A stretch of DNA of 18,554 nt. It comes from Candidatus Margulisiibacteriota bacterium (GTDB lineage: Bacteria > Margulisbacteria > WOR-1 > O2-12-FULL-45-9). Every line of letters starts with the position of its first letter. The first letter of the stretch is position 1. The notes beneath the pieces are model-generated. The model had not been told where the DNA came from and did no database searches. It saw nothing but the letters and a program-made list of their open reading frames with translations. Position numbers and translations under genes: made by a program. The stretch is taken from positions 1 to 18,554 of the forward strand of contig JAYEOW010000010.1 in NCBI GenBank assembly GCA_034723395.1. The letters run 5' to 3'. This document shows, piece after piece, positions 1,448 to 17,647 of the stretch.

Positions 1448-2418
1448 TCAGCAAAAAGTGTGCCAAATCAAGCCCCCCAGGTAAGCAATAGGGATAAAAG
1501 CGATCATCATTTTCCTGATGTAGGTCTGAACATTCCTGAAACCAAAGCTCATGCGCTTGATCATTTTGATCTTGTTGTGAGCGCCTTCGGTAAAAGCATT
1601 GGTAGTCTTATGGTTAAAATAATTGAGGATGTATTTTCTCCAGCGCTTAATGGTTCTTCCCCACTGATTAATCGCCGCATCGTCACTGCATTCCATGTTT
1701 ATGATTATCCTGGAAATAAGGATGGCTGCTTCTTCCCGGCTTTTGCTTTTGTAAAAAGACCTTAAATTCTCTTTTCGCCAATAAAATTCTTTTAATCCCG
1801 GATACTTGTTAAGCAAAAAATCCAGTTGTTGTCTATTTTTTTCATCAAGCCGTTCCCTCCCCATTAAAAACCACCAGCGTTTTCCTATCCGCTTCCTCCG
1901 TTGCATTCCCTGCTCCAGCCGACGACATTCGTCCAACCGGCGGTTGGCATCCTGGATAATATGAAAATGGTCGGCTACAATATCAGCCAGGGGAAGTTCC
2001 TGGCTAACCACAGACAAGAACAGCTCTCTCAAGTCAATGCAAACTTCTTTGATCTTAGGCTTGACGTTTTTCGGTATTGCCCTCAACCATTCCCGGAGGC
2101 TTTTTTGTTGATCACTGGGAAGAATGCTTTTCAACTCTTCAGCCCTGGCCACCGCTCAGTAAAAGGCTTGCCGCAACGCGAACACTGCCAACGGCTCTTA
2201 CGTCCTTTGAGATAGACGATCTTTTCTCCCCACAAATGGTGTTTAACAGACCTGATCTTTCCTGCCTGGTGACAATAACTCGCTTTCTTCCCACATCGGG
2301 GACAGCGTCGGTATTTTTTCTTTAGCTCGATCTCAACTTCAATGGCATTTGGTTGGGAATTAACTGAGCGGATCCAAAAAGCTTGCAGATGGAATATTTT
2401 TGATATATCATTTTTCAT
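1448..2418 (-). pseudogene. ISL3 transposase pseudogene (two frames: 2131-2418 and 1448-2152)
   Basis: N-part has the CPRCG…CSRCG zinc finger. C-part has VCIDL, ADHFH and TNAFTEGAHNKIKMIKRMSFGFRN. Combined about 325 aa; the HTH and first catalytic 'GIDE'-type motif are absent. Stop lies inside the IR. Confidence 0.88.
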
Positions 2419-2468
2419 GTGGTAGGTCCCTTTCTTTTTTGCTTAAGATAGGTTAAAACCTACCACAT
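2417..2468 (-). promoter_or_regulatory. 11-bp inverted repeat covering the transposase start region
   Basis: ATGTGGTAGGT (2417-2427) / ACCTACCACAT (2458-2468); one arm overlaps the start codon (2416-2418) and the SD-ATG spacer. Confidence 0.6.
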
Positions 2469-2496
2469 TTCTATTTATTTATTGGCACACTTTTTG

Positions 2497-3096
2497 CTAT
2501 AGACCCGTGTTCTTAATCCCCGAAGCCAAATAGAGATCTTTACTGTCAATTATCCTAATATTAATAAAGCCCGCCTCTTTAAACAAAACATACATTTTCT
2601 CTTCATCAGGAATTCGATCATTTTTAACCACATTTCCGACCTCTTTATGCAAAGCGTTTATCTCTTCCCGGCTGGCAGAATGAGCAACAGTAAAGACCCC
2701 CTTGGGCCTTAGAACTTTAAATATCTCAAACAAGGCTTTTGGCTTATCCTGAAAATGAGGAAAGGCGTTAAAACAGACAACTTTATCAAAGCGCTTCTCT
2801 TTAAAAGGAAGAAAATGCACGTCCCCTTCCACATAATCAAAGGAATCTGCAAATTTTTCCCTTGCTCTGGCAAGCATTTTTGGAGAGATATCAAGCGCGG
2901 TCACTCTTCCTTGTTTGCCAACCATTTTTTTTAAATTCGGCAGAATGACCCCGGTACCGCAACCGATATCCAGGACCATCTCCCCTGTCCGGATATCTGC
3001 CATTTTTAAAATATAGTCTATCTTGCTGGTATCAGTTACAGTTATGTTTTCATCCCAGTTCTCCGCATGCTTATCAAAGAATTCGCGTCGGCTCAT
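2497..3096 (-). CDS. Class I SAM-dependent methyltransferase (UbiE/Methyltransf_11-like), 199 aa
   Basis: VLDIGCGTG motif I, ALDISPKML, GDVHFLPF, FDKVVC. Start reassigned to MSRREFF (ATG 3096), which forms an ATGA overlap with the permease stop. Stop codon is supplied by the IS IR. Confidence 0.88.
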   Translation of the reverse strand: MSRREFFDKHAENWDENITVTDTSKIDYILKMADIRTGEMVLDIGCGTGVILPNLKKMVGKQGRVTALDISPKMLARAREKFADSFDYVEGDVHFLPFKEKRFDKVVCFNAFPHFQDKPKALFEIFKVLRPKGVFTVAHSASREEINALHKEVGNVVKNDRIPDEEKMYVLFKEAGFINIRIIDSKDLYLASGIKNTGL

Positions 3097-3908
3097 ATTT
3101 TTTTCGCCTTCCTCTTGGGGGAAAAGATCAGGCACAGCCCGAATATTGCCGAAGAAGCAATGATGATCACCGCTCCGGTTGGGACATTTAAAATATATGA
3201 AAATAAAAGCCCGATCAAACAGGAGGTAATCGCAAAAGCTGCAGAGAGCAGAAACATCCGCCTGAGATTATAAGTGAGCTGGTAAGCAGCAGAGGGTGGA
3301 TTGACCACCAGGCTAAAGATTAGAAGGCCCCCTATAGTATTCAAGTTTAAAGTTACAACCGCTCCAGTTAAAAACAACAGCAAATAAAAGATGGTTTTTT
3401 CAGGGATACCAACCGCGCGGGCAATTTCCCTATGAAAAAGAACCGCTTGGATTTCTTTAAAAAATAAAAGTAAAAATAAAAAGATTATAAAAGTGACAGC
3501 CATAAGCAGATACACATCTAATCTTGATATCAGCAAAATATTGCCCCAGATAAATTTCAGGGCTTCAGTCTTGGGACCCGGGATCAATCCCATGCCTAGA
3601 AAAGCAAATCCCAACATCAGGGAAAAAATTATCCCGATGGAGATATTGGCGTCCATTTCCGCCTTTTCCGCCATGGGACCAATCAGGCCAGAAGACACCA
3701 AACAAAAAAACAACGCCATTAATATAGGATTAACCCCTAAAAGAAGGCCAAAGATAGCCCCGGCAAAGGCGGCATGGGACATGGCAACCCCGACAAAGGG
3801 GATGCGCATCATAATTATCCATACCCCCACGACACCGCAGCTCGCTCCCCCGAGCACGGAAGCCAGAATGGCATGCTGCATAAATCTATATTGTAATATT
3901 TCAAGCAT
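3093..3908 (-). CDS. Metal ABC transporter permease (ZnuB/ABC-3 family)
   Basis: Highly hydrophobic; AMSHAAFAG, FIWGNILLIS, GGLLIFSLVVNPPSAA and VPTGAVII motifs typical of ABC-3 permeases. Confidence 0.92.
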   Translation of the reverse strand: MLEILQYRFMQHAILASVLGGASCGVVGVWIIMMRIPFVGVAMSHAAFAGAIFGLLLGVNPILMALFFCLVSSGLIGPMAEKAEMDANISIGIIFSLMLGFAFLGMGLIPGPKTEALKFIWGNILLISRLDVYLLMAVTFIIFLFLLLFFKEIQAVLFHREIARAVGIPEKTIFYLLLFLTGAVVTLNLNTIGGLLIFSLVVNPPSAAYQLTYNLRRMFLLSAAFAITSCLIGLLFSYILNVPTGAVIIIASSAIFGLCLIFSPKRKAKKI

Positions 3909-4620
3909 AGGTTAGCTGTTCAACTGGTTTTATGAGACAAGCATAAAGTTTTGAAAGGAGTTCAATCGACAAAGCTTGTTCTATCTTTCCGGTAAATACG
4001 ATCTTCCCCTCTTTTATTAAACATCCATTGCTGCAGGTTGACGGGATATGTCCAAGAATATGAGTTACAAAAATCACGGTTATCTTTCTTTCTCCATAAA
4101 CCTTATCAATCAATTCGATTATTTCCTTCTGGGCCTTTAAATCTAAACTTCCGGTGGGTTCATCCAGAAGCAGTATTTTTGGTTCCTGAGCCAGAGCCCT
4201 GGCAATAGAAACCTTCTGCTGTTCGCCGCCCGAAAGATGGCCTATCGGTCGGTCAGCCAGCTTCTCAATTCCGCAAAGTTTAATTGCGTTTTCAGCAATC
4301 ACCTTATCTCCAGAACCGGGGCTACGCAGTAATCCGATCTTCCCCACCCTTCCTATCATGACCACTTCTCTTACCGAAATCGGAGAACGGGGATCAATAT
4401 TTAAGGCCTGAGGAACAAATCCGATTTCTTTCCGCTCATAAGTATTAACCGAACCTTTGAGAATTTTACCCAGCCCGTTTATAGCCGTGAGCAGGGTAGT
4501 TTTCCCCGCCCCGTTCGGGCCAATAACTGCCAGATGCGTTCCTTCTTCAATTGTTAAATTGACATTATTGAGCGCGATATTTTCCCGATAAGAGACTGTT
4601 ACGTTCTGAAGTTTGATCAT
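3901..4620 (-). CDS. Metal ABC transporter ATP-binding protein (ZnuC/MntB-like)
   Basis: Walker A GPNGAGKTT, IGFVPQ, signature LSGGE, Walker B LLLDEP, H-loop VTH; overlaps both neighbours. Confidence 0.95.
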   Translation of the reverse strand: MIKLQNVTVSYRENIALNNVNLTIEEGTHLAVIGPNGAGKTTLLTAINGLGKILKGSVNTYERKEIGFVPQALNIDPRSPISVREVVMIGRVGKIGLLRSPGSGDKVIAENAIKLCGIEKLADRPIGHLSGGEQQKVSIARALAQEPKILLLDEPTGSLDLKAQKEIIELIDKVYGERKITVIFVTHILGHIPSTCSNGCLIKEGKIVFTGKIEQALSIELLSKLYACLIKPVEQLTYA

Positions 4621-5402
4621 CTTAGTGCCTTGATTATTTTTTCCACGTTTTGGTTTAGAGACAAAATATAAGAACCCTGCGGGAAGTTAGTGAGCATCAC
4701 CTGTTTGACTCCTATTTCCTGCGCGATTTGCTTACCGGCAACCGGCCCACTCTGGAGATTATCCACTACCAATTCTACTTTTTCATTTTTACCTATGTTT
4801 ATCAGCTTGATCATTTCTGAAGGGGTCAAATCCTCCGGTCTTCCATAAGCAGCTGCCACTTTAATCCCCAGCCATTTTATAAACGGCGCCTGCATTTTGG
4901 AAACAAGAGCTTTAACATTTTTGAACCTTTTAATCCGCGATTCAGCAAACTTGATGCTCGTTATATATTTTGATGAATTTTCCCTATATCCCTTGCAGTT
5001 ATCCTCATCTAATGCACAAAGAATCCCGGTAATTTTTCGAGTAGCCTGAATCTGTAAATCTGGAATCATCCAGTTTCCTTTAACGTTAACCGTCTTTGTT
5101 AAAAGTCGCTCATTTTCTACCGCGCTTAATAGTTTGCTCATCCACCCCTCCCAACCGTGGCTCAGCAAAAGCTTGGCATCAGAAGCAGCCGCAATATCGC
5201 CCGGTTTTACATCAAAATGTCCCGGACACATTCCGGAAGGAACAATGGCAACCACATCTATCCGATCCTTCCCCACCTCCTTAACAATGGATCCTATCAA
5301 AGATGTGGTCACTACAATCCTTACCCTCTCGGGGGGTGCTTTGGCGCACCCCGCCGAAAAGAATAAGCAAACAACTAATATCTTTAAAACAAGTTGCTTC
5401 AT
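4617..5402 (-). CDS. ZnuA/TroA-fold metal ABC substrate-binding lipoprotein with non-canonical ligand set
   Basis: Lipobox SAGC; IVVTTSLIGSIVKEVG…IVPSGMCPGHFD; layout of cluster A-I SBPs; translationally coupled to the ATPase. Confidence 0.85.
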   Translation of the reverse strand: MKQLVLKILVVCLFFSAGCAKAPPERVRIVVTTSLIGSIVKEVGKDRIDVVAIVPSGMCPGHFDVKPGDIAAASDAKLLLSHGWEGWMSKLLSAVENERLLTKTVNVKGNWMIPDLQIQATRKITGILCALDEDNCKGYRENSSKYITSIKFAESRIKRFKNVKALVSKMQAPFIKWLGIKVAAAYGRPEDLTPSEMIKLINIGKNEKVELVVDNLQSGPVAGKQIAQEIGVKQVMLTNFPQGSYILSLNQNVEKIIKALR

Positions 5403-5407
5403 TGGTC

Positions 5408-7225
5408 TTAGAATTTATAATTCAATCCCGCTGTAATCGTCCTTCCAGGCATAGTATAGGTTCCGGCTGAACCGCCAGGAAGATCTGCATAGACAACATA
5501 ATCTGTATTAAGCATATTATCCATCGCAATAAAACCAAACACTCCCGGCACAGCTTCAAAGTTCACCTTGCTGTTGAACACCAAAAAGGGAGTGATCGGG
5601 GACTGCTTATCATCCGCCGCATAGTAATCTCCGACATACTGCGCATTACCCGACAAAGAAAGCTTTCTGTCTCCGACCCTGGCGGAAATATCGATCTTTT
5701 TGCCGGGACGGCCGGTGGTTTTTGATCCCGGATCCAACGTGCTGTATGAAAGCCGGCCGGAAAACCATTCGCGGGGATTAGCCTTCAAGCTTATCTCCGT
5801 ACCTTTAAAAAAGAAAGAGCCGGTATTCTGGAAGCTAAACATCGGCGGAGGTGTAGCGTTACGCACCAGTTCAATCAAATTCTCTCCCTTCATGTTAAAG
5901 GTAACCAATTCAAAGTCCACTCCGGGTAAAAGCGTCTGGACAATGCCCAGCTCGTAATTATCAACAGTCTCGGCCTTGAGGTTGGGATTCCTCGAAGGGA
6001 AAAGATACAATTCGTTAATTTGCGGCGCCCGGAAACCACGGTTAGCCGCTGCCCTTAAGGTTGTATCGGTGGGTAAATGATAAACCACGCCCAGCTGAGG
6101 GCACAGCAAACTTCCCGCAACCTGATCATTATTATATCTGGCGCCAAAAGCCACAATCAGCCTTTCAAGAAATCTCTGCTCATCATGGAAAAAGATAGCG
6201 CTTTCCGCTTTTTCATAATTTCCGGGATAGGTCGCGCCGCTAATTGCTTCTCCTCCCTGCTGTCTGTATTCCGCGCCCAGCGTTAATTCGTTTCCGGGCA
6301 GCAAGCCGGCAGTTCCGTGCAGCATCAAACCATTGGTAAAATCAGATGATTTCCAACCGTCAGAAAACTCATGATTGCCAAAGTTTCGATAAATCTTAAA
6401 CTTATTACTCCATCCCCTCCATTGGCCGTCAAAATTAAGATCAATTGCTCCTCTTTTATAATCGTTCCATGAAGTTGACGCTGGAGTTGGAGGATCGGTG
6501 GATCGCAGGGGTTCATACTTTTTACCATCAAAGTATTTGATGGTAAAAACAGATGCCAGGCTATCTGAAATTGCATAGCCAAAGCGTCCGGTGTAATTCC
6601 CGCCATTGAAGGACGAGTTTGGCAGATAGCCATCGGTTGCCTGTTTGTCTGCGGTTATAAAATAGTCAAGTTTTCCTCTTATCCCTCCTACGTGAACCTG
6701 GTAATGGGAAGTATTGTAAGTACCCGAAGAAGCAAGGACGTTTCCCTCGAAATCCTTTTGGGCTTTTCTGGTTATGATGTTGATTACTCCACCCAAGGCA
6801 TCCGAACCATAGAGAACAGAATTTGGGCCACGCACAACCTCAATTCGTTCAACATTATCCAAAGGCAGGGAATGGGTAATGGTGCAGCCGAAGATCCCCA
6901 TTTTTACCGGGCGACCGTCGATTAGAATCATCACTTTCCTGCCCCGCTCACCCAAGCCTCTAATATCCACATCCGCCCTTCCAAAAACCCCAGTTTTATT
7001 GACAAAGACACCGGGCAAACTATTTAAGATATCGGGGCACGACTTGGCATTCGAGGCCTCGATATCCTCCCGGGTAATAATACTTACAGTTGCGGAAACA
7101 TCTTTTATCTCTTTCTCTGTTTTTGTAGCGGTTATAACAATTTTTTCTAATCCATATCTTTCCGCAAAACACACATTAAAAGTAATTGCTACAATAAATA
7201 AGGCTAAACTCAACTTCTTTAACAT
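5408..7225 (-). CDS. TonB-dependent outer-membrane receptor (BtuB/CirA-like), probably for nickel or a metal chelate
   Basis: Signal peptide, TonB box EKIVITAT, plug motifs DIRGLG/ILIDG/VERIEVVRGPNSVLYGSDALGGVINIIT, C-terminal PGRTITAGLNYKF. Confidence 0.95.
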   Translation of the reverse strand: MLKKLSLALFIVAITFNVCFAERYGLEKIVITATKTEKEIKDVSATVSIITREDIEASNAKSCPDILNSLPGVFVNKTGVFGRADVDIRGLGERGRKVMILIDGRPVKMGIFGCTITHSLPLDNVERIEVVRGPNSVLYGSDALGGVINIITRKAQKDFEGNVLASSGTYNTSHYQVHVGGIRGKLDYFITADKQATDGYLPNSSFNGGNYTGRFGYAISDSLASVFTIKYFDGKKYEPLRSTDPPTPASTSWNDYKRGAIDLNFDGQWRGWSNKFKIYRNFGNHEFSDGWKSSDFTNGLMLHGTAGLLPGNELTLGAEYRQQGGEAISGATYPGNYEKAESAIFFHDEQRFLERLIVAFGARYNNDQVAGSLLCPQLGVVYHLPTDTTLRAAANRGFRAPQINELYLFPSRNPNLKAETVDNYELGIVQTLLPGVDFELVTFNMKGENLIELVRNATPPPMFSFQNTGSFFFKGTEISLKANPREWFSGRLSYSTLDPGSKTTGRPGKKIDISARVGDRKLSLSGNAQYVGDYYAADDKQSPITPFLVFNSKVNFEAVPGVFGFIAMDNMLNTDYVVYADLPGGSAGTYTMPGRTITAGLNYKF

Positions 7226-7254
7226 TTCCCTTGCTCCCTTCTAACTTAAATTAC

Positions 7255-7264
7255 TCGTAACACC
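7255..7264 (-). promoter_or_regulatory. NikR-like half site upstream of the TonB-dependent receptor
   Basis: TCGTAACACC, identical to 8748-8757 and 9/10 identical to 9215-9224; no clear partner half site at 13-bp spacing. Confidence 0.45.
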
Positions 7265-7292
7265 GTGTAGGTCGGATTTTTAGCCCGATCGA

Positions 7293-7886
7293 TCACCACC
7301 CCCCTTTTAACTCAAAAACAAGAGGAATCGTGATTTTTATCCGCGATTCCCCAAATTCTTCCGGAATCGGAGGAAATGGAGATGCTCTTCCTATAGTAGC
7401 GAGCGCCTCATTATCCAGAATTTGATAATCAGAAGAATTAACCAATCTGATGTCCTGAACTTTCCCGTTTGATAAAATAACAAATTCAATTTCAGAATTT
7501 CCCTCAAAGTCTCTTTCCCTTGCCAGCTTGGGATACTTTTTAGCCACCTCGATCCTTTTCCTGATCTCAGCAAAATATTGATTTCTTAGTTTTCCTTTAT
7601 TGTTTTTATTTTTTCCAGAACGCCCCAAAAGATTATCACTAGCCAAATATTGGTTCGGAACCTGTCCTGACAGCTCGGAAACGTTACTGACTTTTTGAGC
7701 CTTAACCACAGAATCCCTCTTTTCTGCTTGCTCTTTTCCTACAATAATACTGCCCATACTTATCGACATATGGTTTGACCCATCTTCGATTAAAAAATTG
7801 CGAAAAACAGGAAAGATCGGCAGGACCAATACCCCATGTATAGAGACTGAAAGCATAAAAGCCGTAAAAAATGTCTTATTCCGCAT
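7293..7886 (-). CDS. tonB: Energy transducer TonB, 197 aa
   Basis: N-terminal TM with SVSIH (SxxxH); TonB_C motif YPKLARERDFEG…SSDYQILDNEAL…FPPIP. Start reassigned to MRNKTFF (ATG 7886), overlapping the exbD stop. Confidence 0.88.
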   Translation of the reverse strand: MRNKTFFTAFMLSVSIHGVLVLPIFPVFRNFLIEDGSNHMSISMGSIIVGKEQAEKRDSVVKAQKVSNVSELSGQVPNQYLASDNLLGRSGKNKNNKGKLRNQYFAEIRKRIEVAKKYPKLARERDFEGNSEIEFVILSNGKVQDIRLVNSSDYQILDNEALATIGRASPFPPIPEEFGESRIKITIPLVFELKGGW

Positions 7887-8289
7887 TGGAATTTTTCCGC
7901 TGCGGGCCGTCAAACATAGTCGCAATTGACAGTTTTCCCACATTGCAGGCTTTGGCAATATCCATTATTTTCGTTACGATCCCTAATCGAACGTCTTTAT
8001 CAGCCTTGATAACAACGGGCTTCTTAATTGAAGAAAGCGCGTTTTTTAAATCGGATAATTTGAGCCTTTTACCTTTCATATAAATATCTTCTTGGGGAGT
8101 TACATAAATAGTAATATTCTTATCGTCCAGATTTGAAGAAAAAACAGCCTTGGGAAGATCGATCTCAAATCCATTCTGCTCGATAAATGAAGAAGTGAGC
8201 AAAAAAAAGATTAAAAGCAGGAATACGCAATCAATCAAAGGAGCGATGTCTAAATATGTGTTTATTTTCGATCGTCCTCTAAGCCTCAA
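7876..8289 (-). CDS. exbD: ExbD/TolR family biopolymer transport protein
   Basis: DIAPLIDCVFLLLIFFLLTS TM with conserved Asp; IDLPKA; VVIKADKDV. Confidence 0.92.
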   Translation of the reverse strand: MRLRGRSKINTYLDIAPLIDCVFLLLIFFLLTSSFIEQNGFEIDLPKAVFSSNLDDKNITIYVTPQEDIYMKGKRLKLSDLKNALSSIKKPVVIKADKDVRLGIVTKIMDIAKACNVGKLSIATMFDGPQRKNSNAE

Positions 8290-8716
8290 ACTCTTTCTCC
8301 TTTTCTAAAATTAAAGCATAATCATCAACCCTACGATTAAAATAGTGATACATCACAAAAGAAGGAATGGCCACTACAAGCCCGAAAGCCGTAGTAAGCA
8401 ACGCTTCCCATATCCCGCCGGCAAGCACGGAGGCATTCACCCGGCCTGCAAGTTCCTCAATCCTCATAAAGGCGCGAATCATACCGGTTACAGTTCCAAG
8501 CAGACCCAGAAGAGGGGCAACATGCGCAACGATCCCTAAAATATCTATGTTTTTTTCCAAATCTTGGACGACTAATGGACCAATGGCGCTGTTTTTCATA
8601 AGTTTTCCAACTTTCCAGAACTTAAAAAAACGTTCTATGATAACAGTCAGAGAAACCACCGAACAAGCAAGGATTAGCCCCATTATCCAGCCACCTTTAA
8701 CCATTAAATTCAGCAT
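8279..8716 (-). CDS. exbB: MotA/TolQ/ExbB proton channel protein (unusually short, 145 aa)
   Basis: GGWIM TM1…IIER; APLLGLLGTVTGMIRAF; GGIWEALLTTAFGLVVAIPS; AAGGAGG Shine-Dalgarno. Confidence 0.9.
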   Translation of the reverse strand: MLNLMVKGGWIMGLILACSVVSLTVIIERFFKFWKVGKLMKNSAIGPLVVQDLEKNIDILGIVAHVAPLLGLLGTVTGMIRAFMRIEELAGRVNASVLAGGIWEALLTTAFGLVVAIPSFVMYHYFNRRVDDYALILEKEKEFEA

Positions 8717-8729
8717 CTCGCCCTCCTTA

Positions 8730-8756
8730 GTAGCAATAATCTAATATTCGTAACAC
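8730..8756 (-). promoter_or_regulatory. Candidate NikR operator upstream of exbB
   Basis: Plus strand GTAGCAA-N13-GTAACAC; same right half and 13-bp spacing as the site upstream of nikR. Confidence 0.55.
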
Positions 8757-8774
8757 CATAAGGCAAAAAAAATA

Positions 8775-9191
8775 TTACACTATTTCTTTACCCGTAGCTG
8801 TCACCACCAGTTTCCCGTGTTTTACACCCTTAGTGCTGATCAGCCTGTTGCCGATATCTTTTACATTTTGGGCCTTTCCCTTTACCACTAAAATTTCCAA
8901 ACAATTATGGTGGTCCATGTGGATGTGCGTGCTGGAAATGATATTTTTATAAAAATCATGCTGCATATCTGTCAGCTTGTCAGCCAGCGCGCGGGTGTGG
9001 TGGTTATAGACGATCGTTACCGTCCCGACGACTTCTTTATCTTCCGCAATAGACTGTTCCACGATGTTGTCACGCATAAGGTCGCGGATGGCTTCGGAGC
9101 GGCTGGTGTAACCTCTCTGTAGAGATATCTTATCAAACTTCTCAAGTAAATCTTCTGGCGCTGATATTCCGAATCTTTCGATATTGCTCAT
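8775..9191 (-). CDS. nikR: Nickel-responsive transcriptional regulator NikR
   Basis: RHH N-terminus RFGIS…[22 protein letters not shown]; Ni-site motif QH…HIH…NCLE; GVKHGKL. Confidence 0.96.
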
Positions 9192-9196
9192 GATTA

Positions 9197-9223
9197 GTGC
9201 TACCCTTTTTATAATTGTAACAC
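9197..9223 (-). promoter_or_regulatory. NikR operator (autoregulatory), imperfect dyad GTGCTAC-N13-GTAACAC
   Basis: 6/7 inverted symmetry over 27 bp; overlaps the -10 box and leader of nikR. Confidence 0.75.
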
Positions 9224-9241
9224 CACTAAATATCCTGTCAA
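9214..9241 (-). promoter_or_regulatory. Sigma70-type promoter of the nikR operon
   Basis: TTGACA (9241-9236), 16-bp spacer, extended -10 TGtTACAAT (TACAAT 9219-9214). Confidence 0.75.
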
Positions 9242-9275
9242 GCCTTTTGGGATAAAGAGTAAGCCGGATGAGATA

Positions 9276-9620
9276 CTAAATTCTCTTATACCTAGCCAAC
9301 TCTTCCTCGCTCATCCCAAAATAGTGGCCGATCTCGTGCTGGAGAACATTTACGATCAGATCAGGGATTTTTTTATCGGGGAAACGGTCAAACGCCTTTT
9401 TATAGATAATAATTTTATCGGGAAGGACATTTTGGTAGGCAGGTCCGCGGCGCGACCAGGGGACCCCTCGATACTGCCCCAGGATCATATGTTTTTGACT
9501 ATCAAAAGGGAGCTGATCAGGCTCGACTTCGATCGTAATATTTTCAAGTTTCTCCCTAAACTTATCAGGGATCTCTTCTAGTGCTTTTTCCACCTGTTTT
9601 TCGAAGTCGGCAAACTGCAT
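9276..9620 (-). CDS. Minimal zincin-like metallopeptidase family protein
   Basis: LGQYRGVP, LPDKIIIY and HEIGHYFGMSE (HExxH) motifs. Confidence 0.88.
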   Translation of the reverse strand: MQFADFEKQVEKALEEIPDKFREKLENITIEVEPDQLPFDSQKHMILGQYRGVPWSRRGPAYQNVLPDKIIIYKKAFDRFPDKKIPDLIVNVLQHEIGHYFGMSEEELARYKRI

Positions 9621-9684
9621 TTATTTATTATACACCAAAAGAACCTCCCCTTGACCCATTAACAAACTAGTGAGAAAATGGCCC

Positions 9685-9819
9685 ATGCATAAAAAGACCA
9701 CACAAAAGATTTGGGTCCTGCTGATCCTGGCAGCTATTATCTTCTTTGCTGTTTTCATGGTACTAACCGTGCCAGAAGTGAATACCGTCGAAGAAGTCGA
9801 GCAGGTTGAAGGCTTCTAA
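9685..9819 (+). CDS. Small single-pass membrane protein, 44 aa (MHKKTTQKIWVLLILAAIIFFAVFMVLTVPEVNTVEEVEQVEGF); not in the ORF track
   Basis: ATG 9685 to TAA 9819; basic N-terminus, ~20-aa hydrophobic segment, acidic tail; fills the gap 11 bp before the co-oriented chagasin gene; TTGACC-N17-GAAAAT upstream. Confidence 0.7.
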   Translation: MHKKTTQKIWVLLILAAIIFFAVFMVLTVPEVNTVEEVEQVEGF

Positions 9820-9830
9820 GGCATAAAACC

Positions 9831-10217
9831 GTGGAAAAATATATTTGCTATGCATTATTGGCAATTCTTGCTATTGGGCTGCTTATACTGAACGGCTGCG
9901 ATAAGAAGTTTACAGAAAAGCAAAACGGGAAAGAGGTTGCGCTTAAAGCCGGCACGAACTTCTCGATTTATCTGGAAGGGAATCCAACGACCGGATACAA
10001 CTGGCAGGTAAAAGATTACGACCGTAAGATCATTGAACAGGTAGGGAAGGAAAAATATTCCTCAGAAGGCGACAAGATCGGCACCGGCGGGCATTTCACC
10101 TTTAACTTCAAGGCCCTCTTGCCCGGAAAAACAAAACTGGAACTTGCTTATCTCCGTCCGTGGGAAGAGAACGTTCCACCGATTGAAACCTTTGAGGTCA
10201 TACTGCGTATTAAGTAA
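9831..10217 (+). CDS. Chagasin/ICP (I42 family) cysteine protease inhibitor lipoprotein
   Basis: Lipobox LNGC; NPTTGY, IGTGG and YLRPWE, the three conserved chagasin loops. Confidence 0.92.
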   Translation: MEKYICYALLAILAIGLLILNGCDKKFTEKQNGKEVALKAGTNFSIYLEGNPTTGYNWQVKDYDRKIIEQVGKEKYSSEGDKIGTGGHFTFNFKALLPGKTKLELAYLRPWEENVPPIETFEVILRIK

Positions 10218-14011: not shown

Positions 14012-14455
14012 TTATTTTTTCTTGAGCTTGAGGCGCGCTCTCTCTAATACCCGCATGTGCGATTCTTCATCCCGGGAAAGAGTTTTATAAAACTCTTTCT
14101 CTTCCTGGCCGGCCGCCCCCTCCGCCTCCCTTGTGTAAAAGGTGATCGCGTGCTTTTCATCTTCGATCGCGCTATTGATTACCTCTATGTCGCTCAGGTC
14201 GGGATCTTCAAAATTTATTTCACTTAAAATAGAGGCCTTCTCCAAAATCCCGCTATAATCCAACGATGCCTTCATTTTTTTTAATCGCTGTTCGATCGCT
14301 TTCATATGTTTTTTCTCTTCCCCCAAAATCTTCTTGATCATCTTCTTTCCGTCCGGGTTCAAACTCCGATTCGCCATCCGCGCATAGAAATTTACCGCCT
14401 CTTTCTCCGCCTTAAGCGCTATTAATAACGGCCTGCTCCTTTTTTGCTCATTCAT
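14012..14455 (-). CDS. Ferritin-like / rubrerythrin-family di-iron protein without rubredoxin domain
   Basis: Two repeats of E…FY…EExxH/DExxH (AEKEAVNFY…EEKKH; DEKHAITFY…DEESH); GGAGG SD. Confidence 0.85.
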   Translation of the reverse strand: MNEQKRSRPLLIALKAEKEAVNFYARMANRSLNPDGKKMIKKILGEEKKHMKAIEQRLKKMKASLDYSGILEKASILSEINFEDPDLSDIEVINSAIEDEKHAITFYTREAEGAAGQEEKEFYKTLSRDEESHMRVLERARLKLKKK

Positions 14456-14471
14456 ATCAATCCCTCCTTCA

Positions 14472-16205
14472 CTATAATACCAAATTTAACAAACTTCCGA
14501 CAGTGATTGCGGTAATGACCATAATCAAAGCCGCCTTCAACATATCTTTCCATCCCAATTCCCGGAGTAATACGCTAAAAGTGGCGACACAAGGGAAAAA
14601 CATCGCCAGCACGACACAGGCCACAACCAATTGGTTAACGCTTAGGCCTAACGGCACCAGCATTCCGATAGCTACATCCTTTCTTAAGAATCCGATAACG
14701 ATCGCGGTCACCGCTTCCTTGGGCAGGCCCAACAGACCGGTAATTACCGGCGCCGTAATATTTGCTATAAAATCAAAAATACCCAAAAAATAAAGAAGAT
14801 TAACAACAAATACTCCTGCCAGAACAATGGGGAGAGCCTCTTTTAAAAACCCTTTAACGCGCCACCACAATTTTATTGATAAGATCCTAAGCGGAGGATA
14901 ACGGTAAGGGGGAATCTCAAGTAATAGCTCCGGACTGAATCCCGGCAAGATTTTATTTAAAACAAATCCGAGCAGCAGCCAGCTAAGCATCAATGTCCCG
15001 TAGACAATCGCCACCGGTCTACCGCCATAATCCCCCAGGATTCCAATGATCATCGCCTGTAGCGCCGCACAAGGAATTCCGATCGAAATCAGGGTTGATG
15101 CAATAAAACGCTCCCGCTTACTCTCTAATATTCTTGTAGCCAGTATCCCGGGGACATTGCATCCAAAACTAAGCAGGGTTGGAACGATCGCAAATCCGTG
15201 CAGGCCGACGCGGTGCATTAAGTTGTCCAGCAGGACTGCCAAACGCGGAAGATAGCCGGAATCTTCGAGTATTCCCAGAACCAGATAAAAAGCCAGGACA
15301 TATGGAAGGACCGCCCCTATAGGAACAAAAAGCCCGGTGGTTAAAACACCAAAAGATTGGAAATAATCTATCTCTCCGCCAATTAGTTTCCCGATCAGGA
15401 TATCATGCAGCAGGCCGGACGAGCCAAGCCATACGCCTAATTTCATCATTAACGGCGTATAGAAATTATTAAACATCGGCTCAGAAACATAACCGATCAG
15501 GCCTTCGCCGATAAACCGGATAACTTTAAAAGAGAGATAGGCTACCAGAGCTGCTACCGGCAACCCGGTCCTGGCATGGATAGTCAGGTCCTGGAACCGC
15601 TCCAATAATGTGTGGCGCCGGGGCTCGATCCGCTGCACTTCAAAAATTAGTTTTCCGATATCTTCCCAGCGCTCAAGCTTTGAATGTTTCCGGACCTCAG
15701 GTGTCCGCGCCTTGTAGATCTCAGCAATCAGACCGGCAAAGCCCTCCCCCGTCACCGCAACTGTCGGGATAACCGGGATCCCCAGCCATTTTGCAAGCTT
15801 TTCGATATCAATATGGATCCCCTTATGCTTTGTATCGTCCCACATGTTAAGGGCCAAAATAACCGGGACATTTTTTTCCATAAGCTCCAAAGTCAAATTA
15901 AGGTTCCTTTCCAAATTAGTGGCATCGATAATATTTATTATGATATCGCCCTGGAAAGACACTTCCTTGGTCGCCTCTTTGAACATTTCACAGGCGACAT
16001 CTTCTGCTTTACAGGTAGGCTCCAAAGTATAAGTCCCGGGAACATCGATAACTTCCACCTTTTCTTCGCCGATAAGCATATAGCCTTTAGTAAATTCAAC
16101 CGTAGTCCCCGGATAATTTGAAGTTACAACGTGCACTCCGGTCAACCTTGAAAAGAACGCGCTCTTTCCAACATTTGGGTTGCCCATTAAGAGGACTTTT
16201 CTCAT
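14472..16205 (-). CDS. feoB: Ferrous iron transporter FeoB, 577 aa
   Basis: G1 GNPNVGKS, NYPGTTVE, DVPGTY, NMWD; LEDSGYLPR, FGCNVPG and FFPCVAT gate motifs. Start MRKVLL (ATG 16205) forms an ATGA overlap with feoA. Confidence 0.96.
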   Translation of the reverse strand: MRKVLLMGNPNVGKSAFFSRLTGVHVVTSNYPGTTVEFTKGYMLIGEEKVEVIDVPGTYTLEPTCKAEDVACEMFKEATKEVSFQGDIIINIIDATNLERNLNLTLELMEKNVPVILALNMWDDTKHKGIHIDIEKLAKWLGIPVIPTVAVTGEGFAGLIAEIYKARTPEVRKHSKLERWEDIGKLIFEVQRIEPRRHTLLERFQDLTIHARTGLPVAALVAYLSFKVIRFIGEGLIGYVSEPMFNNFYTPLMMKLGVWLGSSGLLHDILIGKLIGGEIDYFQSFGVLTTGLFVPIGAVLPYVLAFYLVLGILEDSGYLPRLAVLLDNLMHRVGLHGFAIVPTLLSFGCNVPGILATRILESKRERFIASTLISIGIPCAALQAMIIGILGDYGGRPVAIVYGTLMLSWLLLGFVLNKILPGFSPELLLEIPPYRYPPLRILSIKLWWRVKGFLKEALPIVLAGVFVVNLLYFLGIFDFIANITAPVITGLLGLPKEAVTAIVIGFLRKDVAIGMLVPLGLSVNQLVVACVVLAMFFPCVATFSVLLRELGWKDMLKAALIMVITAITVGSLLNLVL

Positions 16206-16447
16206 TTCTTGACCTCCACTATGATTTTCGCCGCCATCCCATGCCCGATCCCAATCTGTGTCCCTCCCACCTGCGCGGTTACCGGCCCCCAAAGAAAGGC
16301 CCCGCTTTTTTTGGTTATCTGCATTCCCACCCTCAAGCCTAACGCTTGTAAACGCCTAAAAAGCCCTGAACCGCCTAATATCTCCCTGACAATCCCACTC
16401 TCACCCGTTTTCATATTATTTAAAGGAACCTTTTTATCTGCGCACAT
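16202..16447 (-). CDS. feoA: Ferrous iron transport protein FeoA, 81 aa
   Basis: RRLQALGLRVG, GPVT, IGIGHGMAAKIIVE; start reassigned to MCADKK (ATG 16447), right after the fur stop. Confidence 0.92.
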   Translation of the reverse strand: MCADKKVPLNNMKTGESGIVREILGGSGLFRRLQALGLRVGMQITKKSGAFLWGPVTAQVGGTQIGIGHGMAAKIIVEVKK

Positions 16448-16448
16448 T

Positions 16449-16877
16449 TCACTTCCCCTTTCCTTGGCATTTACCGCATATACTAAATATTTGCATCTGA
16501 TGTTGTTTACTATCGAAATTATATTTTTTACAAATCTTCTCCTGCCGTCTCTCCAGGTCCGAATCAAAAAACTCGATCACTTTACCGCATTTTCGGCAAA
16601 TAAAATGGTCATGATGTTTCCGATCAAGCACTTGCTCAAAGCGCTTCCTTTTGCCGGTAAAATTCATCTCAGCAGCTATCTTAGCATTTTTCAGAAGTTT
16701 AATCGTCCGGTAAACAGTGGTATGACCTATGCTTGGATATTTTTTTCTTAGCGTATAGTAAAGCTCATCCACACAAATATGCCCTTTCTTTGCCAAGAAC
16801 ATCTGCGCGATCGCAGTCCGCTGCCTGGTCAGCTTTAGGCTCTTCTGTTCTAAGTATTTTTTAAAATAATCGAGCAT
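16449..16877 (-). CDS. fur: Fur-family transcriptional repressor
   Basis: KLTRQR, TTVYRTIKLL, HHDHFICRKCG, C-terminal CGKC; heads the feoAB operon. Confidence 0.93.
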   Translation of the reverse strand: MLDYFKKYLEQKSLKLTRQRTAIAQMFLAKKGHICVDELYYTLRKKYPSIGHTTVYRTIKLLKNAKIAAEMNFTGKRKRFEQVLDRKHHDHFICRKCGKVIEFFDSDLERRQEKICKKYNFDSKQHQMQIFSICGKCQGKGK

Positions 16878-17074: not shown

Positions 17075-17371
17075 TTAAAAGACCAGTGTCCGATGTCGAT
17101 CCGCCAGCTCTCCCCTCTTCCCTTTATTCCATCCGGAAACCCTGGAGAAGTAGCCGGTAACCCTGGTGATATGCTCTACATTCCGGCCTCCTACTAAAAC
17201 CTTCTCCAATTTTTCAACAGTTAGGGAGGCTAAAGCCTTAGGCTCGATCTTTACCTTCTCCTTTTCGCCATCAAAGATCGAGTGCCGCAGATAGAGATTC
17301 CCATCGTCATCCTGCGCCCATTCAATATCCGGATTGCTTTCTAAAAAGGCATTTAATTCGTCGAGCGTCAT
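17075..17371 (-). CDS. Stand-alone class III ribonucleotide reductase (NrdD)-type glycyl-radical domain protein, 98 aa
   Basis: VEHITRVTGYFSRVSGWNKGKRGELADR matches the NrdD C-terminal RVxGY…WNxGK..E..DR motif. Own start MTLDEL (ATG 17371) with GGAGGTGA SD at 17383-17376. Confidence 0.85.
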   Translation of the reverse strand: MTLDELNAFLESNPDIEWAQDDDGNLYLRHSIFDGEKEKVKIEPKALASLTVEKLEKVLVGGRNVEHITRVTGYFSRVSGWNKGKRGELADRHRTLVF

Positions 17372-17381
17372 TTGTTCACCT

Positions 17382-17414
17382 CCCTCCTTCGCCCTCCGGG
17401 CTACGGAGGGCAAG
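17382..17414. repeat. REP-like GC-rich hairpin CCCTCCTTCGCCCTCCGGGCTACGGAGGGCAAG
   Basis: Stem GCCCTCCG (17391-17398)/CGGAGGGC (17404-17411) with GGCTA loop, plus a second CCCTCC copy at 17382-17387; intergenic. Confidence 0.55.
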
Positions 17415-17421
17415 CCATTAC

Positions 17422-17647
17422 TTATCTGTAGTGAAGTGCTAAGTCGGAAATATAGGTTTTATGGAGCATTTCGTGCATCTTGCTCTGGACCATGCTAAAA
17501 CACTTTCTGGCTTTGCACTTGCCGCTAAAAAGGCAGCTCCTTTTATTAAAGATACAATCACTGATCACGAGCGGCCCCTCGATCGCTTCGATCACTTCTG
17601 CCAGGTTAATCTTTTTTGGATCGATCGCCAAGCGCAGGCCTCCCCCC
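17422..17647 (-). pseudogene. Rrf2-family (IscR/NsrR-like) regulator, 5' half missing
   Basis: GGGLRLAIDPKKINLAEVIEAIEG followed by C-x6-C-x5-C and TYISDL; no winged HTH upstream (frame closes at 17697-17695) and no credible start. Confidence 0.8.

What the first reader, a model, noticed from the sequence alone, without database searches (positions are those of the whole stretch)
2497..9241. Complete NikR-headed uptake system built from a TonB receptor, a ZnuABC-type transporter and a methyltransferase
Seen: nine co-oriented, mostly overlapping genes from nikR to a SAM methyltransferase, with repeated operator-like boxes. Knowledge: NikR usually controls NikABCDE (peptide-type ABC), NikMNQO (ECF) or NiCoT/HupE permeases, while ZnuA/TroA-type ABC systems are usually Zur/Fur/MntR-controlled Zn/Mn/Fe importers. 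Inference: an under-described nickel (or Ni-chelate / Ni-tetrapyrrole) import route with its own dedicated TonB motor.
Basis: partly seen in the sequence, partly recalled or inferred. Interest (0 to 1): 0.7.

Follow-up and report, generated by a model that had tools for sequence, protein, structure and literature searches.

The report
Nickel-regulated uptake operon of new type
A nickel-sensing repressor gene heads nine genes that encode an outer-membrane receptor with its own energy motor, a zinc-transporter-like importer with a rebuilt binding site and a methyltransferase, most likely an undescribed and widespread way for bacteria to take up nickel.

Summary
Nine intact, co-oriented, tightly packed minus-strand genes run from nikR (9191) to a SAM methyltransferase (2497). 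A near-consensus promoter overlaps a NikR palindrome. The other two "boxes" are half-sites.

The nickel reading is supported by comparative evidence only; there is no experiment.
- The binding protein has the ZnuA/TroA fold but lacks the canonical metal ligands. It carries an invariant Cys-Pro-Gly-His motif instead.
- Among 167 unique homologous loci (not a random sample), 45 of the 56 with an adjacent receptor carry nikR and/or a NikR operator.
- In 31 of 39 NikR-bearing genomes of the same phylum, nikR sits beside a CbiM/NikM gene. This genome alone (1 of 146) has the new module. It has no CbiM, NiCoT or HupE match, yet keeps a [NiFe] hydrogenase and a LarA-like enzyme.
- No relative in its order (0 of 30) has any ExbB, so the motor probably arrived with the module.
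- The methyltransferase family also accompanies FecCD-type and membrane-fused importers that have NikR boxes.

Caveat: receptor-less homologues in Chloroflexota sit behind Fur-family genes.

Earlier notes from this scan, on other DNA, described NikR-linked receptor, ECF-type importer and methyltransferase operons. This looks like a sister system.

The parts
9214..9241 (-). sigma-70-type promoter, TTGACA-16 nt-TACAAT with TG extension
   Evidence: Best promoter-like site in 2300-9750 (11 of 12 positions); it overlaps the NikR palindrome. The total number of promoter-like sites in the region is no more than in shuffles.
9197..9223 (.). NikR operator, palindrome GTGTTAC-N13-GTAGCAC, ending 5 nt before the nikR ATG
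   Evidence: One mismatch to the published GTGTTAC-N13/14-GTAACAC consensus (PMC545781 Table 4). Weight-matrix score 28.0 bits; the only strong site in the genome.
8775..9191 (-). nikR, 138 aa, ribbon-helix-helix plus NikR_C domains
   Evidence: PF08753 113 bits and PF01402. NF003381 206.6 bits, over its cut-off. 156.8 bits to the solved chain 2bj1, with the H...HxH.....C motif conserved. 70.8% identical to the NikR of a same-family relative.
8750..8757 (-). half-site GGTGTTAC in the nikR-exbB spacer
   Evidence: The 33-nt window 8727-8759 scores only 9.1 bits.
8279..8716 (-). exbB, 145 aa
   Evidence: PF01618 98 bits. The only MotA/ExbB/TolQ-family match in the genome.
7876..8289 (-). exbD, 137 aa, TTG start after GGAG
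   Evidence: PF02472 98.9 bits; sequence read.
7293..7886 (-). tonB, about 197 aa from ATG 7886 (longest ORF starts at TTG 7958)
   Evidence: PF03544 67 bits. The translation shows an N-terminal membrane helix with S-x-x-x-H. The choice of start codon is inferred.
7257..7264 (-). half-site GGTGTTAC in the tonB-receptor spacer
   Evidence: No recognisable second half.
5408..7225 (-). TonB-dependent outer-membrane receptor, 605 aa
   Evidence: Plug 96 bits and barrel 106 bits. No NCBIfam model reaches its cut-off. In 51 orthologues, M109, C114 (plug) and H285 are 98-100% conserved.
4617..5402 (-). periplasmic binding lipoprotein of the ZnuA/TroA fold with the CPGH motif, 261 aa
   Evidence: PF01297 96 bits. 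Model pLDDT 94.8; TM 0.78 to YfeA, at most 23% identity. Invariant G57-D64 (GMCPGHFD), N215, Q217, N239. Lipobox FSAG|C read from the translation.
3901..4620 (-). ABC ATPase, 239 aa
   Evidence: PF00005 109.6 bits. The AztA/MntA-type models score best but stay below their cut-offs.
3093..3908 (-). ABC-3 family permease, 271 aa
   Evidence: PF00950 189 bits. The only such match found by phmmer in the genome.
2497..3096 (-). class I SAM methyltransferase, 199 aa from the ATG that overlaps the permease stop (the GTG at 3135 gives 212 aa)
   Evidence: Methyltransf_25/11/31 domains. No NCBIfam cut-off reached. Family invariants are the SAM motif plus P113-H114, H139 and H150. The 199-aa form is held letter for letter in the Atlas.

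Best explanation
This is a NikR-repressed nickel acquisition operon.

Proposed mechanism:
1. When nickel is scarce, apo-NikR leaves the palindrome over the -10 element, and the nine genes are transcribed from the nikR promoter. This is inferred from the tight packing.
2. The receptor captures nickel at the cell surface, probably as a small chelate.
3. ExbB-ExbD-TonB, which came with the module, powers passage through the outer membrane.
4. The lipoprotein binding protein takes the cargo in the periplasm. Its site is built around an invariant Cys-Pro-Gly-His motif with Asn and Gln residues, not the usual His/His/Glu/Asp ion site.
5. It hands the cargo to the ABC-3 permease and ATPase.
6. The methyltransferase then acts on the cytoplasmic side, on the cargo's organic ligand or in nickel hand-over.
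7. Nickel-loaded NikR shuts the operon off, including its own gene.

Shown: gene content, motifs, promoter and operator sequences, conservation and phylogenetic distribution. Inferred: the metal, co-transcription, the form of the cargo and the methyltransferase's role.
For: 1. Regulator.
- The NikR passes NCBIfam's equivalog cut-off.
- It keeps the H...HxH.....C motif shared with solved NikRs.
- Its operator matches the consensus defined on nikMNQO operons (PMC545781), and it overlaps the best promoter in the region.

2. Conservation.
- In 80 loci of binding-protein homologues (897,016 nt), 37 sites lie within 2 mismatches of the consensus and 27 within 1. By my arithmetic about 0.3 are expected for at most 1 mismatch.
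- Nearly all sit just upstream of the receptor or of nikR, including in loci that have no nikR gene.
- Over 167 unique loci, 45 of 56 receptor-type loci have nikR or a box. The figure is 42 of 49 where at least 2.8 kb of upstream sequence is available.

3. Natural replacement.
- In the window's phylum, 42 of 146 genomes match NikR_C at E <= 0.001. Two of these are weak, leaving G000 and 39 others with strong matches.
- 63 of 146 have CbiM.
- In 31 of the 39 other strong-NikR genomes, the two genes lie within about 1.2 kb of each other (coordinates, compared by eye).
- The closest NikR (70.8% identical) heads a nikR-CbiM-PDGLE operon with the same type of operator.
- The window's genome alone has the CPGH binding protein (1 of 146), and it has no CbiM.

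4. Demand without another recognised supply.
- A [NiFe]-hydrogenase cluster with HycI, HypA and a HypC-domain gene is present, as is a LarA-like gene.
- There is no match to NicO, HupE/UreJ or CbiM. The genome is 97% complete.

5. Motor.
- This is the only ExbB in the genome.
- None was found in 0 of 15 plus 0 of 15 genomes of the same order, while each of those relatives has one receptor and this genome has two.

6. Binding site.
- The canonical ligand positions of MntA (5hx7) align with G61, a deletion, a variable residue and S218.
- CP[GAS][HQN] is kept in all 115 homologues that cover the position, and 130 of 146 library representatives have CPGH exactly.

7. The methyltransferase family recurs with other importer types.
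- FecCD/Peripla_BP_2 importers in L274 and L275. L275 has a GTATTAC-N13-GTAATAC palindrome upstream.
- A polytopic membrane domain fused to the methyltransferase, behind a receptor and a perfect NikR box, in L273.
Against: - No transport, binding or expression data exist.
- Receptor-less homologues with the same motifs follow Fur-family genes in Chloroflexota (12 loci), or have no recognisable regulator in Bacillota. Only 4 of 62 such loci show nikR or a box. The Fur-type proteins reach no NCBIfam cut-off. The family's metal therefore need not be nickel everywhere.
- This is the only ZnuA-family protein in the genome, and no ZIP transporter was found. The zinc supply is unaccounted for and could also depend on this system.
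- All characterised cluster A-I/ABC-3 systems carry bare Zn, Mn or Fe ions (names of the solved relatives).
- Only one full operator is present. Control of exbB and of the receptor by the half-sites is unproven.
- Two peptide/nickel-type binding proteins (PF00496) exist elsewhere in the genome and were not examined further.
Confidence: 0.72

Rival explanations
1. It is an ordinary zinc (or manganese/iron) importer of the ZnuABC/TroABC kind, as databases annotate it. On this reading the NikR homologue responds to that metal, as was once suggested for a methanogen.
For: - Sources name the homologues 'zinc transport system substrate-binding protein' or 'metal ABC transporter'.
- The fold and Pfam family are ZnuA.
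- The genome has no other ZnuA and no ZIP.
- Kaster et al. 2011 noted a NikR homologue beside a putative ZnuABC in Methanothermobacter and proposed that it senses zinc (PMC3087415, passages).
- Chloroflexota homologues follow Fur-family genes.
Against: - The four canonical Zn/Mn ligand positions are not conserved.
- The NikR is 70.8% identical to a relative's NikR that heads a CbiM operon, and it keeps the nickel-site motif.
- The operator is the one defined on nickel transporter operons.
- No model for ZnuA, AztC or MntC reaches its cut-off.
Confidence: 0.08
2. It imports cobalt, or nickel and cobalt (or other thiophilic metals) without discrimination. NikR control would then reflect only one of the cargoes.
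For: - Known nickel importers such as NiuBDE also carry cobalt (PMC5140060, passages).
- The invariant Cys, His and Met residues of receptor and binding protein would suit several soft metals.
- Regulators vary across the family.
Against: - No B12 riboswitch in the window or in 12 related loci.
- The module takes the place of the nikR-linked CbiM/NikM gene of relatives.
- Cobalt demand in this genome was not examined.
Confidence: 0.1
3. The cargo is bare Ni2+, and the methyltransferase is not part of transport. It would be a nickel-requiring or nickel-regulated client enzyme that merely travels with nickel importers.
For: - Cluster A-I systems are ion transporters.
- The methyltransferase has three invariant histidines that could bind a metal.
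- Many receptor-type loci lack it (22 of 56 have it), and 15 loci carry an FmdE-domain gene instead.
Against: - It keeps an intact SAM-binding motif.
- It is translationally coupled to the permease here.
- It recurs with three unrelated importer classes, and in L273 it is fused to a membrane domain of the importer. That places it at the point where cargo arrives.
Confidence: 0.3

Closest known systems
FrpB4 with ExbB/ExbD/TonB of Helicobacter pylori (NikR-repressed TonB-dependent nickel uptake); NikH of H. mustelae
   Same: An outer-membrane receptor energised by ExbB-ExbD-TonB and repressed by NikR, with a nickel chelate suspected as cargo (PMC5140060, introduction passages).
   Different: Orthology was not tested, because no FrpB4 sequence was at hand. 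There the inner-membrane step is NixA or NiuBDE, encoded elsewhere. Here receptor, motor, ABC importer and regulator form one operon, and the ABC importer belongs to another class.
ZnuABC / MntABC / TroABC / YfeABCD (cluster A-I binding proteins with ABC-3 permeases), and the ZnuD-ZnuABC pairing for zinc
   Same: - Fold: TM 0.75-0.79 to YfeA, ZnuA, PsaA and TroA.
- PF01297, PF00950 and the ATPase family.
- The logic of a receptor plus an ABC importer under one metal sensor (ZnuD paper seen in the search listing only, PMC2895646).
   Different: - The canonical His/His/Glu-or-His/Asp site is absent, replaced by CPGH plus N215 and Q217.
- At most 23% identity.
- Controlled by NikR, not Zur or MntR.
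- Has a methyltransferase partner.
NikMNQO / Nik(MN)QO ECF nickel importers under NikR
   Same: The same regulator and operator type (PMC545781). In relatives of this organism, nikR heads a CbiM-type operon. The two systems appear interchangeable.
   Different: An unrelated transporter architecture. No CbiM was found in this genome.
NiuBDE / CeuE-FecDE (FecCD-type nickel ABC importer binding Ni-(L-His)2)
   Same: An ABC importer for a nickel chelate. A FecCD/Peripla_BP_2 operon with the same methyltransferase family and a NikR-like palindrome occurs in L275.
   Different: The window's importer is ABC-3/ZnuA-type, not FecCD/class III.
NikR homologue MTH603 beside putative ZnuABC MTH604-606 in Methanothermobacter
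   Same: The adjacency of nikR and a ZnuABC-type cluster was noted in print (PMC3087415).
   Different: It was read there as a zinc system with a zinc-sensing NikR. Whether that binding protein has the CPGH motif could not be checked here.
NikR-linked receptor + ECF-type importer + methyltransferase operons noted earlier in this scan
   Same: Receptor, inner-membrane importer and methyltransferase under NikR. L273 here shows a membrane domain fused to a methyltransferase of the same family, behind a receptor and a perfect NikR box.
   Different: The importer class differs.

Membership tests
NikR (nickel-responsive ribbon-helix-helix repressor) | N-terminal ribbon-helix-helix domain plus C-terminal NikR_C domain | tested here: met
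   PF01402 30.5 bits and PF08753 113.1 bits. NF003381 206.6 bits against a cut-off of 105.
NikR (nickel-responsive ribbon-helix-helix repressor) | High-affinity nickel-site residues (His, His-x-His, Cys). Their roles are recalled from the E. coli structure papers, not taken from a call. | tested here: met
   The motif QH...(S/T)H(I/V)HMD.HNC aligns without gaps with the solved chains 2bj1 and 2ca9.
NikR (nickel-responsive ribbon-helix-helix repressor) | Palindromic operator of 27-28 bp at a regulated promoter | tested here: met
   GTGTTAC-N13-GTAGCAC at 9197-9223, over the -10 element. Consensus from PMC545781.
NikR (nickel-responsive ribbon-helix-helix repressor) | Nickel-dependent DNA binding | not testable with these tools
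   Needs EMSA or footprinting.
Cluster A-I metal ABC importer (ZnuABC/MntABC/TroABC) | Two-lobed binding protein with a rigid linking helix; PF01297 | tested here: met
   PF01297 96 bits. Model pLDDT 94.8. Foldseek TM 0.78 to 7me2; all top hits are cluster A-I proteins.
Cluster A-I metal ABC importer (ZnuABC/MntABC/TroABC) | Four conserved metal ligands (His, His, His/Glu, Asp). Ligand identities are recalled; positions are taken from the 5hx7 alignment. | tested here: not met
   The positions align with G61, an 8-residue deletion, a variable residue before Q195, and S218. The family's invariant residues are elsewhere.
Cluster A-I metal ABC importer (ZnuABC/MntABC/TroABC) | ABC-3 permease and cognate ATPase | tested here: met
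   PF00950 189 bits and PF00005 110 bits.
Cluster A-I metal ABC importer (ZnuABC/MntABC/TroABC) | Curated equivalog models (ZnuA/B/C, AztA/B/C, MntA/C, SloB/C) | tested here: not met
   All scores are far below their cut-offs, for example AztC 42 against 350 and ZnuB 65 against 284.
TonB-dependent transport system | Receptor with plug and 22-strand barrel domains, plus ExbB, ExbD and a TonB with a C-terminal domain | tested here: met
   PF07715, PF00593, PF01618, PF02472 and PF03544 are all over their cut-offs.
TonB-dependent transport system | Substrate-specific receptor family (B12, haem, siderophore models) | tested here: not met
   The best score is TonB-B12 at 188 bits against a cut-off of 599.7; none passes.
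Known nickel importers (NikABCDE, NikMNQO, NiCoT, HupE/UreJ, NiuBDE) | Presence of their signature families in the cluster | tested here: not met
   The cluster has none. The genome has no CbiM, NicO or HupE/UreJ match. Two PF00496 proteins lie elsewhere.
Arsenite/UbiE-type class I methyltransferases | SAM-binding motif | tested here: met
   LDxGxGxG and the acidic residue D69 are invariant in 34 sequences.
Arsenite/UbiE-type class I methyltransferases | Family cut-offs; conserved cysteines of ArsM (recalled) | tested here: not met
   ArsM-type models score 70-77 bits against cut-offs of 263-575; UbiE 73 against 158; DVU_1556 family 68 against 155. No invariant Cys; C121 is 81% conserved.

The most novel reading that the evidence does not exclude
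The methyltransferase is the release step of a nickel-chelate (nickelophore) pathway. Ni(II) cannot be freed by reduction as Fe(III) can. The enzyme would therefore sit at the cytoplasmic face of the importer and methylate a donor group of the imported chelator, so that it lets go of the metal. The same enzyme family would serve three unrelated importer classes (ZnuABC-like, FecCD-type and a membrane-fused ECF-like type), all under NikR. That points to a widespread, still unidentified nickelophore among anaerobic bacteria and archaea.
Probability: 0.25. Interest if true: 0.85.

Novelty: new variant of a known kind. Interest (0 to 1): 0.72.

Why it matters
- It would add a fifth class to the catalogue of nickel importers. 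The catalogue as summarised in PMC5140060 is peptide-type ABC, ECF, NiCoT-type permeases and FecCD-type ABC.
- It would be the first nickel specificity, and the first non-canonical binding site, in the well-studied ZnuA/TroA family.
- The profile finds 524 clusters at 50% identity with E <= 1e-30. Sources currently label these proteins zinc or generic metal transporters, so nickel budgets inferred from metagenomes of anaerobic sediments, brines and bioreactors would be wrong for many candidate phyla.
- The module is portable and self-powered. In this genome it seems to have replaced the ECF system and to have brought a TonB motor into a lineage where none was found.
- The recurring methyltransferase offers a concrete handle on whether bacteria use and process nickelophores.

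Tried and rejected
- Rodionov et al. 2006 (J Bacteriol 188:317), the paper most likely to have catalogued NikR-regulated receptors, is not held. I could not check whether it lists this arrangement.
- Literature searches for NikR with TonB-dependent/ABC-3, ZnuA, cluster A-I or methyltransferase found no description, apart from the Methanothermobacter remark. A term search in the 2024 Chem Rev review returned nothing (only half of that text is held).
- Riboswitch control: no Rfam hit in the window. In 12 related loci the only hit was a tRNA.
- Zur control: the genome has a single Fur-family gene, next to feoB. It was not assignable to a subtype.
- Methyltransferase function: the PDB sequence search and the protein Atlas gave only generic class I methyltransferases.
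- Spatial clustering of the invariant residues in the binding cleft could not be measured, because model coordinates are not exposed. The argument rests on the sequence alignment with 5hx7.
- Synteny around nikR between this genome and two relatives: none beyond nikR itself. An in-place swap is therefore not shown.
- A shared operator in the Planctomycetota-type loci: none found.
- Expression: no RNA holder listed.
- The repeat finder was called with a minus-strand region and returned an error. It was not repeated; the weight-matrix scan replaced it.
- Whether the Methanothermobacter binding protein is of the CPGH type could not be checked, because I had no route to that genome.

Full report
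**Anatomy.**

The window is contig C10 of a 1.68 Mb genome in 55 contigs, 97% complete. Positions 9241 to 2497 hold nine intact minus-strand genes:
- nikR, exbB, exbD and tonB
- a 605-aa TonB-dependent receptor
- a 261-aa ZnuA-family binding protein
- an ABC ATPase and an ABC-3 permease
- a class I SAM methyltransferase

Five junctions overlap by 4 to 11 nt, once tonB is started at ATG 7886 and the methyltransferase at ATG 3096. The three gaps are 58, 67 and 5 nt. The binding protein has a lipoprotein signal, and the receptor has a signal peptide followed by a TonB-box-like stretch (read from the translations). Downstream lie the two pieces of a broken ISL3 transposase gene (2418-1448). The window holds no riboswitch and no tRNA gene.

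**Regulatory sites.**

The best promoter-like site of the region is TTGACA-16-TACAAT at 9241-9214. It overlaps a palindrome, GTGTTAC-N13-GTAGCAC (9223-9197). This differs at one position from the NikR consensus GTGTTAC-N13/14-GTAACAC, which Rodionov et al. derived from nikMNQO operons of delta-proteobacteria (PMC545781, Table 4 and the nickel section; passages read).

I built a weight matrix from 26 sites of related loci. The nikR site scores 28.0 bits, inside the training range of 20.8-40.1. It is the only strong site in the genome; the next best scores 10.6.

The same 7-mer recurs on the coding strand in the nikR-exbB and tonB-receptor spacers. Those two copies are half-sites, scoring 9.1 bits and unranked.

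**The regulator is a genuine NikR.**

It passes the NCBIfam equivalog cut-off. It is closest to the solved chain 2bj1 at 156.8 bits. It aligns without gaps through the His...His-x-His.....Cys stretch shared with 2bj1 and 2ca9. That these residues are the nickel ligands is recalled knowledge, not a tool result.

**The binding protein is not an ordinary ZnuA.**

The AlphaFold model (pLDDT 94.8) matches cluster A-I proteins: YfeA, ZnuA, PsaA, MntC, AztC and TroA, with TM 0.72-0.79 and at most 23% identity.

In the alignment with MntA (5hx7), the canonical ligand positions fall on G61, an 8-residue deletion, a variable residue and S218. What is invariant in 35 homologues is G57-M-C-P-G-H-F-D64, P114, N215, Q217 and N239-F240.

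All 115 homologues from three phylogenetically broad sets share CPGH(F/Y)D, GNWMxP, DNLQSG and (S/T)NFP where the position is covered. In the 1.84-billion-protein library, the profile finds 524 representatives at E <= 1e-30. Of 146 new top hits, 130 have CPGH exactly, and most of the remaining 16 show CP[GAS][HQN]. The cysteine is thus the most constant residue.

The receptor family likewise keeps M109 and C114 in the plug and H285 (51 sequences). Sources call these binding proteins zinc or generic metal transporters.

**Neighbourhood survey.**

- Set 1: the best 80 of 292 relatives of the window's binding protein. They come from WOR-3, Stahlbacteria, Elusimicrobiota, Latescibacterota, Verrucomicrobiota, Lentisphaerota, Planctomycetota and others. 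The receptor lies directly upstream in 53 of 75 assessable loci. nikR is adjacent in 23 of 48, and the methyltransferase is adjacent in 24 of 59. NikR boxes within 2 mismatches number 37 in 897 kb. Of these, 27 are within 1 mismatch and 10 are perfect, against roughly 0.3 expected for at most 1 mismatch by my arithmetic for uniform base composition. Nearly all sit just before the receptor or nikR, including in loci with no nikR gene nearby.
- Set 2: 35 relatives of a Desulfofundulus protein, from Bacillota and Chloroflexota. These have no receptor except two divergent ones, no nikR and no box. A Fur-family gene lies directly upstream in the Chloroflexota loci, and the methyltransferase is present in most. 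No riboswitch was found in 12 of them. The Fur-type proteins reach no NCBIfam cut-off.
It is dominated by Planctomycetota. There a 345-aa protein of no known family and a protein with a prepilin-type N-terminal methylation motif replace the receptor. nikR is divergent in several loci. One Bathyarchaeia locus has the importer with the methyltransferase.

Pooled and de-duplicated, there are 167 loci.

| Type | Loci | nikR gene | NikR box | Either | Fur-family gene | Methyltransferase |
|---|---|---|---|---|---|---|
| Receptor | 56 | 23 | 35 | 45 (42 of 49 with at least 2.8 kb upstream) | 0 | 22 |
| Prepilin-like | 49 | 8 | 3 | 11 | 0 | 3 |
| Bare | 62 | 2 | 3 | 4 | 12 | 39 |

These sets are not random samples.

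**A natural replacement.**

The window's phylum holds 146 genomes. The counts there are:
- The CPGH binding protein occurs only in this genome.
- NikR_C is matched in 42 genomes, two of them weakly, which leaves G000 and 39 others with strong matches.
- CbiM occurs in 63 genomes but not in this one.
- The [NiFe]-hydrogenase large subunit occurs in 62, including this one.

I compared the coordinates listed by eye. In 31 of the 39 other genomes with a strong NikR, nikR lies within about 1.2 kb of a CbiM gene. The 8 misses are G124, G102, G125, G120, G123, G058, G137 and G068.

The window's NikR is 70.8% and 59.9% identical to those of two same-family relatives. It is at most 55.8% identical to the NikRs that accompany CPGH clusters in other phyla. 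In the closest relative, nikR is followed by CbiM and a PDGLE-domain gene and preceded by GTGCTAC-N13-GTAGCAC.

So the regulator looks resident while the cargo genes differ: an ECF-type nickel importer in the relatives, this module here. There is no synteny beyond nikR, so an in-place swap is not shown.

This genome keeps a group-3-like [NiFe] hydrogenase cluster with HycI, HypA and a HypC-domain gene, and a LarA-like gene. It has no match to NicO, HupE/UreJ or CODH/Prismane.

**The motor.**

The exbB here is the only MotA/ExbB/TolQ-family gene in the genome. None was found in the 15 + 15 other genomes of the same order, although 80 of 146 genomes of the phylum have one. Each of those relatives has exactly one receptor where any was found (27 of 31 genomes), and this genome has two.

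The second receptor, on contig C41, sits beside a short TonB_C protein that my first phmmer screen had missed. The module thus seems to have brought ExbB-ExbD-TonB into a lineage without one. Among the 80 set-1 loci, only L054 also carries exbB and exbD inside the cluster.

**The methyltransferase.**

In 34 to 54 aligned members, the SAM motif, an FPH motif and two further histidines are invariant, and no cysteine is. True members score above about 130 bits against the profile, while other methyltransferases in the same genomes score 80 bits or less.

In a sample of 301 genomes of the phylum of L054, 12 have a member. Their contexts are as follows:
- the receptor-type and prepilin-type CPGH operons, three of them headed by nikR
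- two FecCD-ATPase-Peripla_BP_2-methyltransferase operons (L274, L275), one with a GTATTAC-N13-GTAATAC palindrome about 135 nt upstream
- a receptor-methyltransferase pair (L279)
- a perfect NikR box, then a receptor, then a protein whose roughly 165-aa polytopic membrane domain is fused to the methyltransferase, then another hydrophobic ORF (L273)

Earlier notes of this scan describe receptor, ECF-type importer and methyltransferase operons under NikR on other DNA. L273 fits that description. I could not see their sequences.

An enzyme that follows nickel-regulated importers of unrelated classes, and is sometimes fused to one, most simply acts on what is imported. That argues for an organic nickel chelate rather than a bare ion. 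This remains an inference.

**What is known.**

The nickel importers listed in the papers I read are NikABCDE, NikZYXWV, CntABCDF, NiuBDE, NiCoT/NixA, Nik/CbiMNQO, HupE/UreJ, UreH, and the receptors FrpB4, FecA3, NikH and a few predicted ones. The sources are:
- PMC5140060, passages
- PMC2667541, passages
- PMC11247825, passages

None is of the ZnuA/ABC-3 class. The only printed mention I found of nikR beside a ZnuABC-type cluster is for Methanothermobacter, where the authors suggested a zinc-sensing NikR (PMC3087415). The 2006 survey by Rodionov et al. is not held and may bear on priority.

**Verdict.**

The best explanation is a NikR-repressed nickel (probably nickel-chelate) uptake operon built on a re-tooled ZnuABC-type importer, with its own receptor and motor and a methyltransferase of unknown role (confidence 0.72).

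The main reservation is that receptor-less homologues with the same motifs sit under Fur-family or unknown control. This genome also shows no other recognised zinc importer, so a broader or different metal range is not excluded.

Noticed in passing
window 1448-2418 (-): An ISL3-family transposase gene split into a 95-aa zinc-ribbon piece and a 234-aa DDE piece. About 90 residues of the family profile are missing between them. It lies directly downstream of the methyltransferase and may mark the edge of the acquired module.
   Followed up: partly
G000 contig C41, locus L240 1529-3927 (-): A second TonB-dependent receptor with a short TonB_C protein beside it. Relatives of the order have exactly one such receptor each, but no ExbB/TolQ-family gene was found in any of 30 genomes. 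How that receptor is energised in them is unexplained.
   Followed up: partly
L079 7326-7982, L070 2058-3092 and about 49 loci: In Planctomycetota and some Verrucomicrobiota, the receptor is replaced by two co-oriented genes. One encodes a 345-aa protein with no Pfam family. The other encodes a roughly 220-aa protein with a prepilin-type N-terminal methylation motif. They lie directly upstream of the CPGH binding protein, sometimes with nikR divergent or heading the operon.
   Followed up: partly
L013 10312-10776 and 14 further loci: A small FmdE-domain (PF02663) gene follows the permease in 15 of 167 loci, where other loci carry the methyltransferase. It may be a cytoplasmic metal-handling partner.
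   Followed up: no
L275 1711-5387; L274 3589-7138: FecCD permease, ATPase, Peripla_BP_2 binding protein and a methyltransferase of the same family form an operon. L275 has a perfect GTATTAC-N13-GTAATAC palindrome about 135 nt upstream. In L274 the FecCD gene is split and lies beside IS200-like and DDE transposase genes.
   Followed up: partly
L273 2444-6049: A perfect NikR box (N14 spacing), then a divergent receptor, then a 374-aa protein. The first roughly 165 residues of that protein are a polytopic membrane domain and the rest is the methyltransferase. Another hydrophobic ORF follows, and then the contig ends.
   Followed up: partly
window 14012-16877 (-): Rubrerythrin, feoB (606 aa) and the genome's only Fur-family gene lie together. 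This is an iron-uptake locus 5 kb from the nickel operon.
   Followed up: no
window 9276-10217: A zincin-like metallopeptidase gene (PF06262) lies immediately upstream of the nikR promoter on the same strand. A chagasin-family peptidase inhibitor gene (PF09394) lies on the other strand. Neither is found near nikR in two relatives.
   Followed up: partly
window 17075-17652 (-): A 112-aa ORF matches only the C-terminal end of the anaerobic ribonucleotide reductase NrdD. Next to it is a 76-aa ORF matching the C-terminal half of an Rrf2 regulator. Both look like fragments or small stand-alone forms.
   Followed up: no
L105, L108-L113, L115, L116, L119, L120: In Chloroflexota/Dehalococcoidia, a Fur-family gene directly precedes the CPGH importer and methyltransferase. 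By NCBIfam scores it is nearer to Fur and PerR than to Zur, but it stays below every cut-off. Whether it is a nickel-sensing (Nur-like) form is open.
   Followed up: partly
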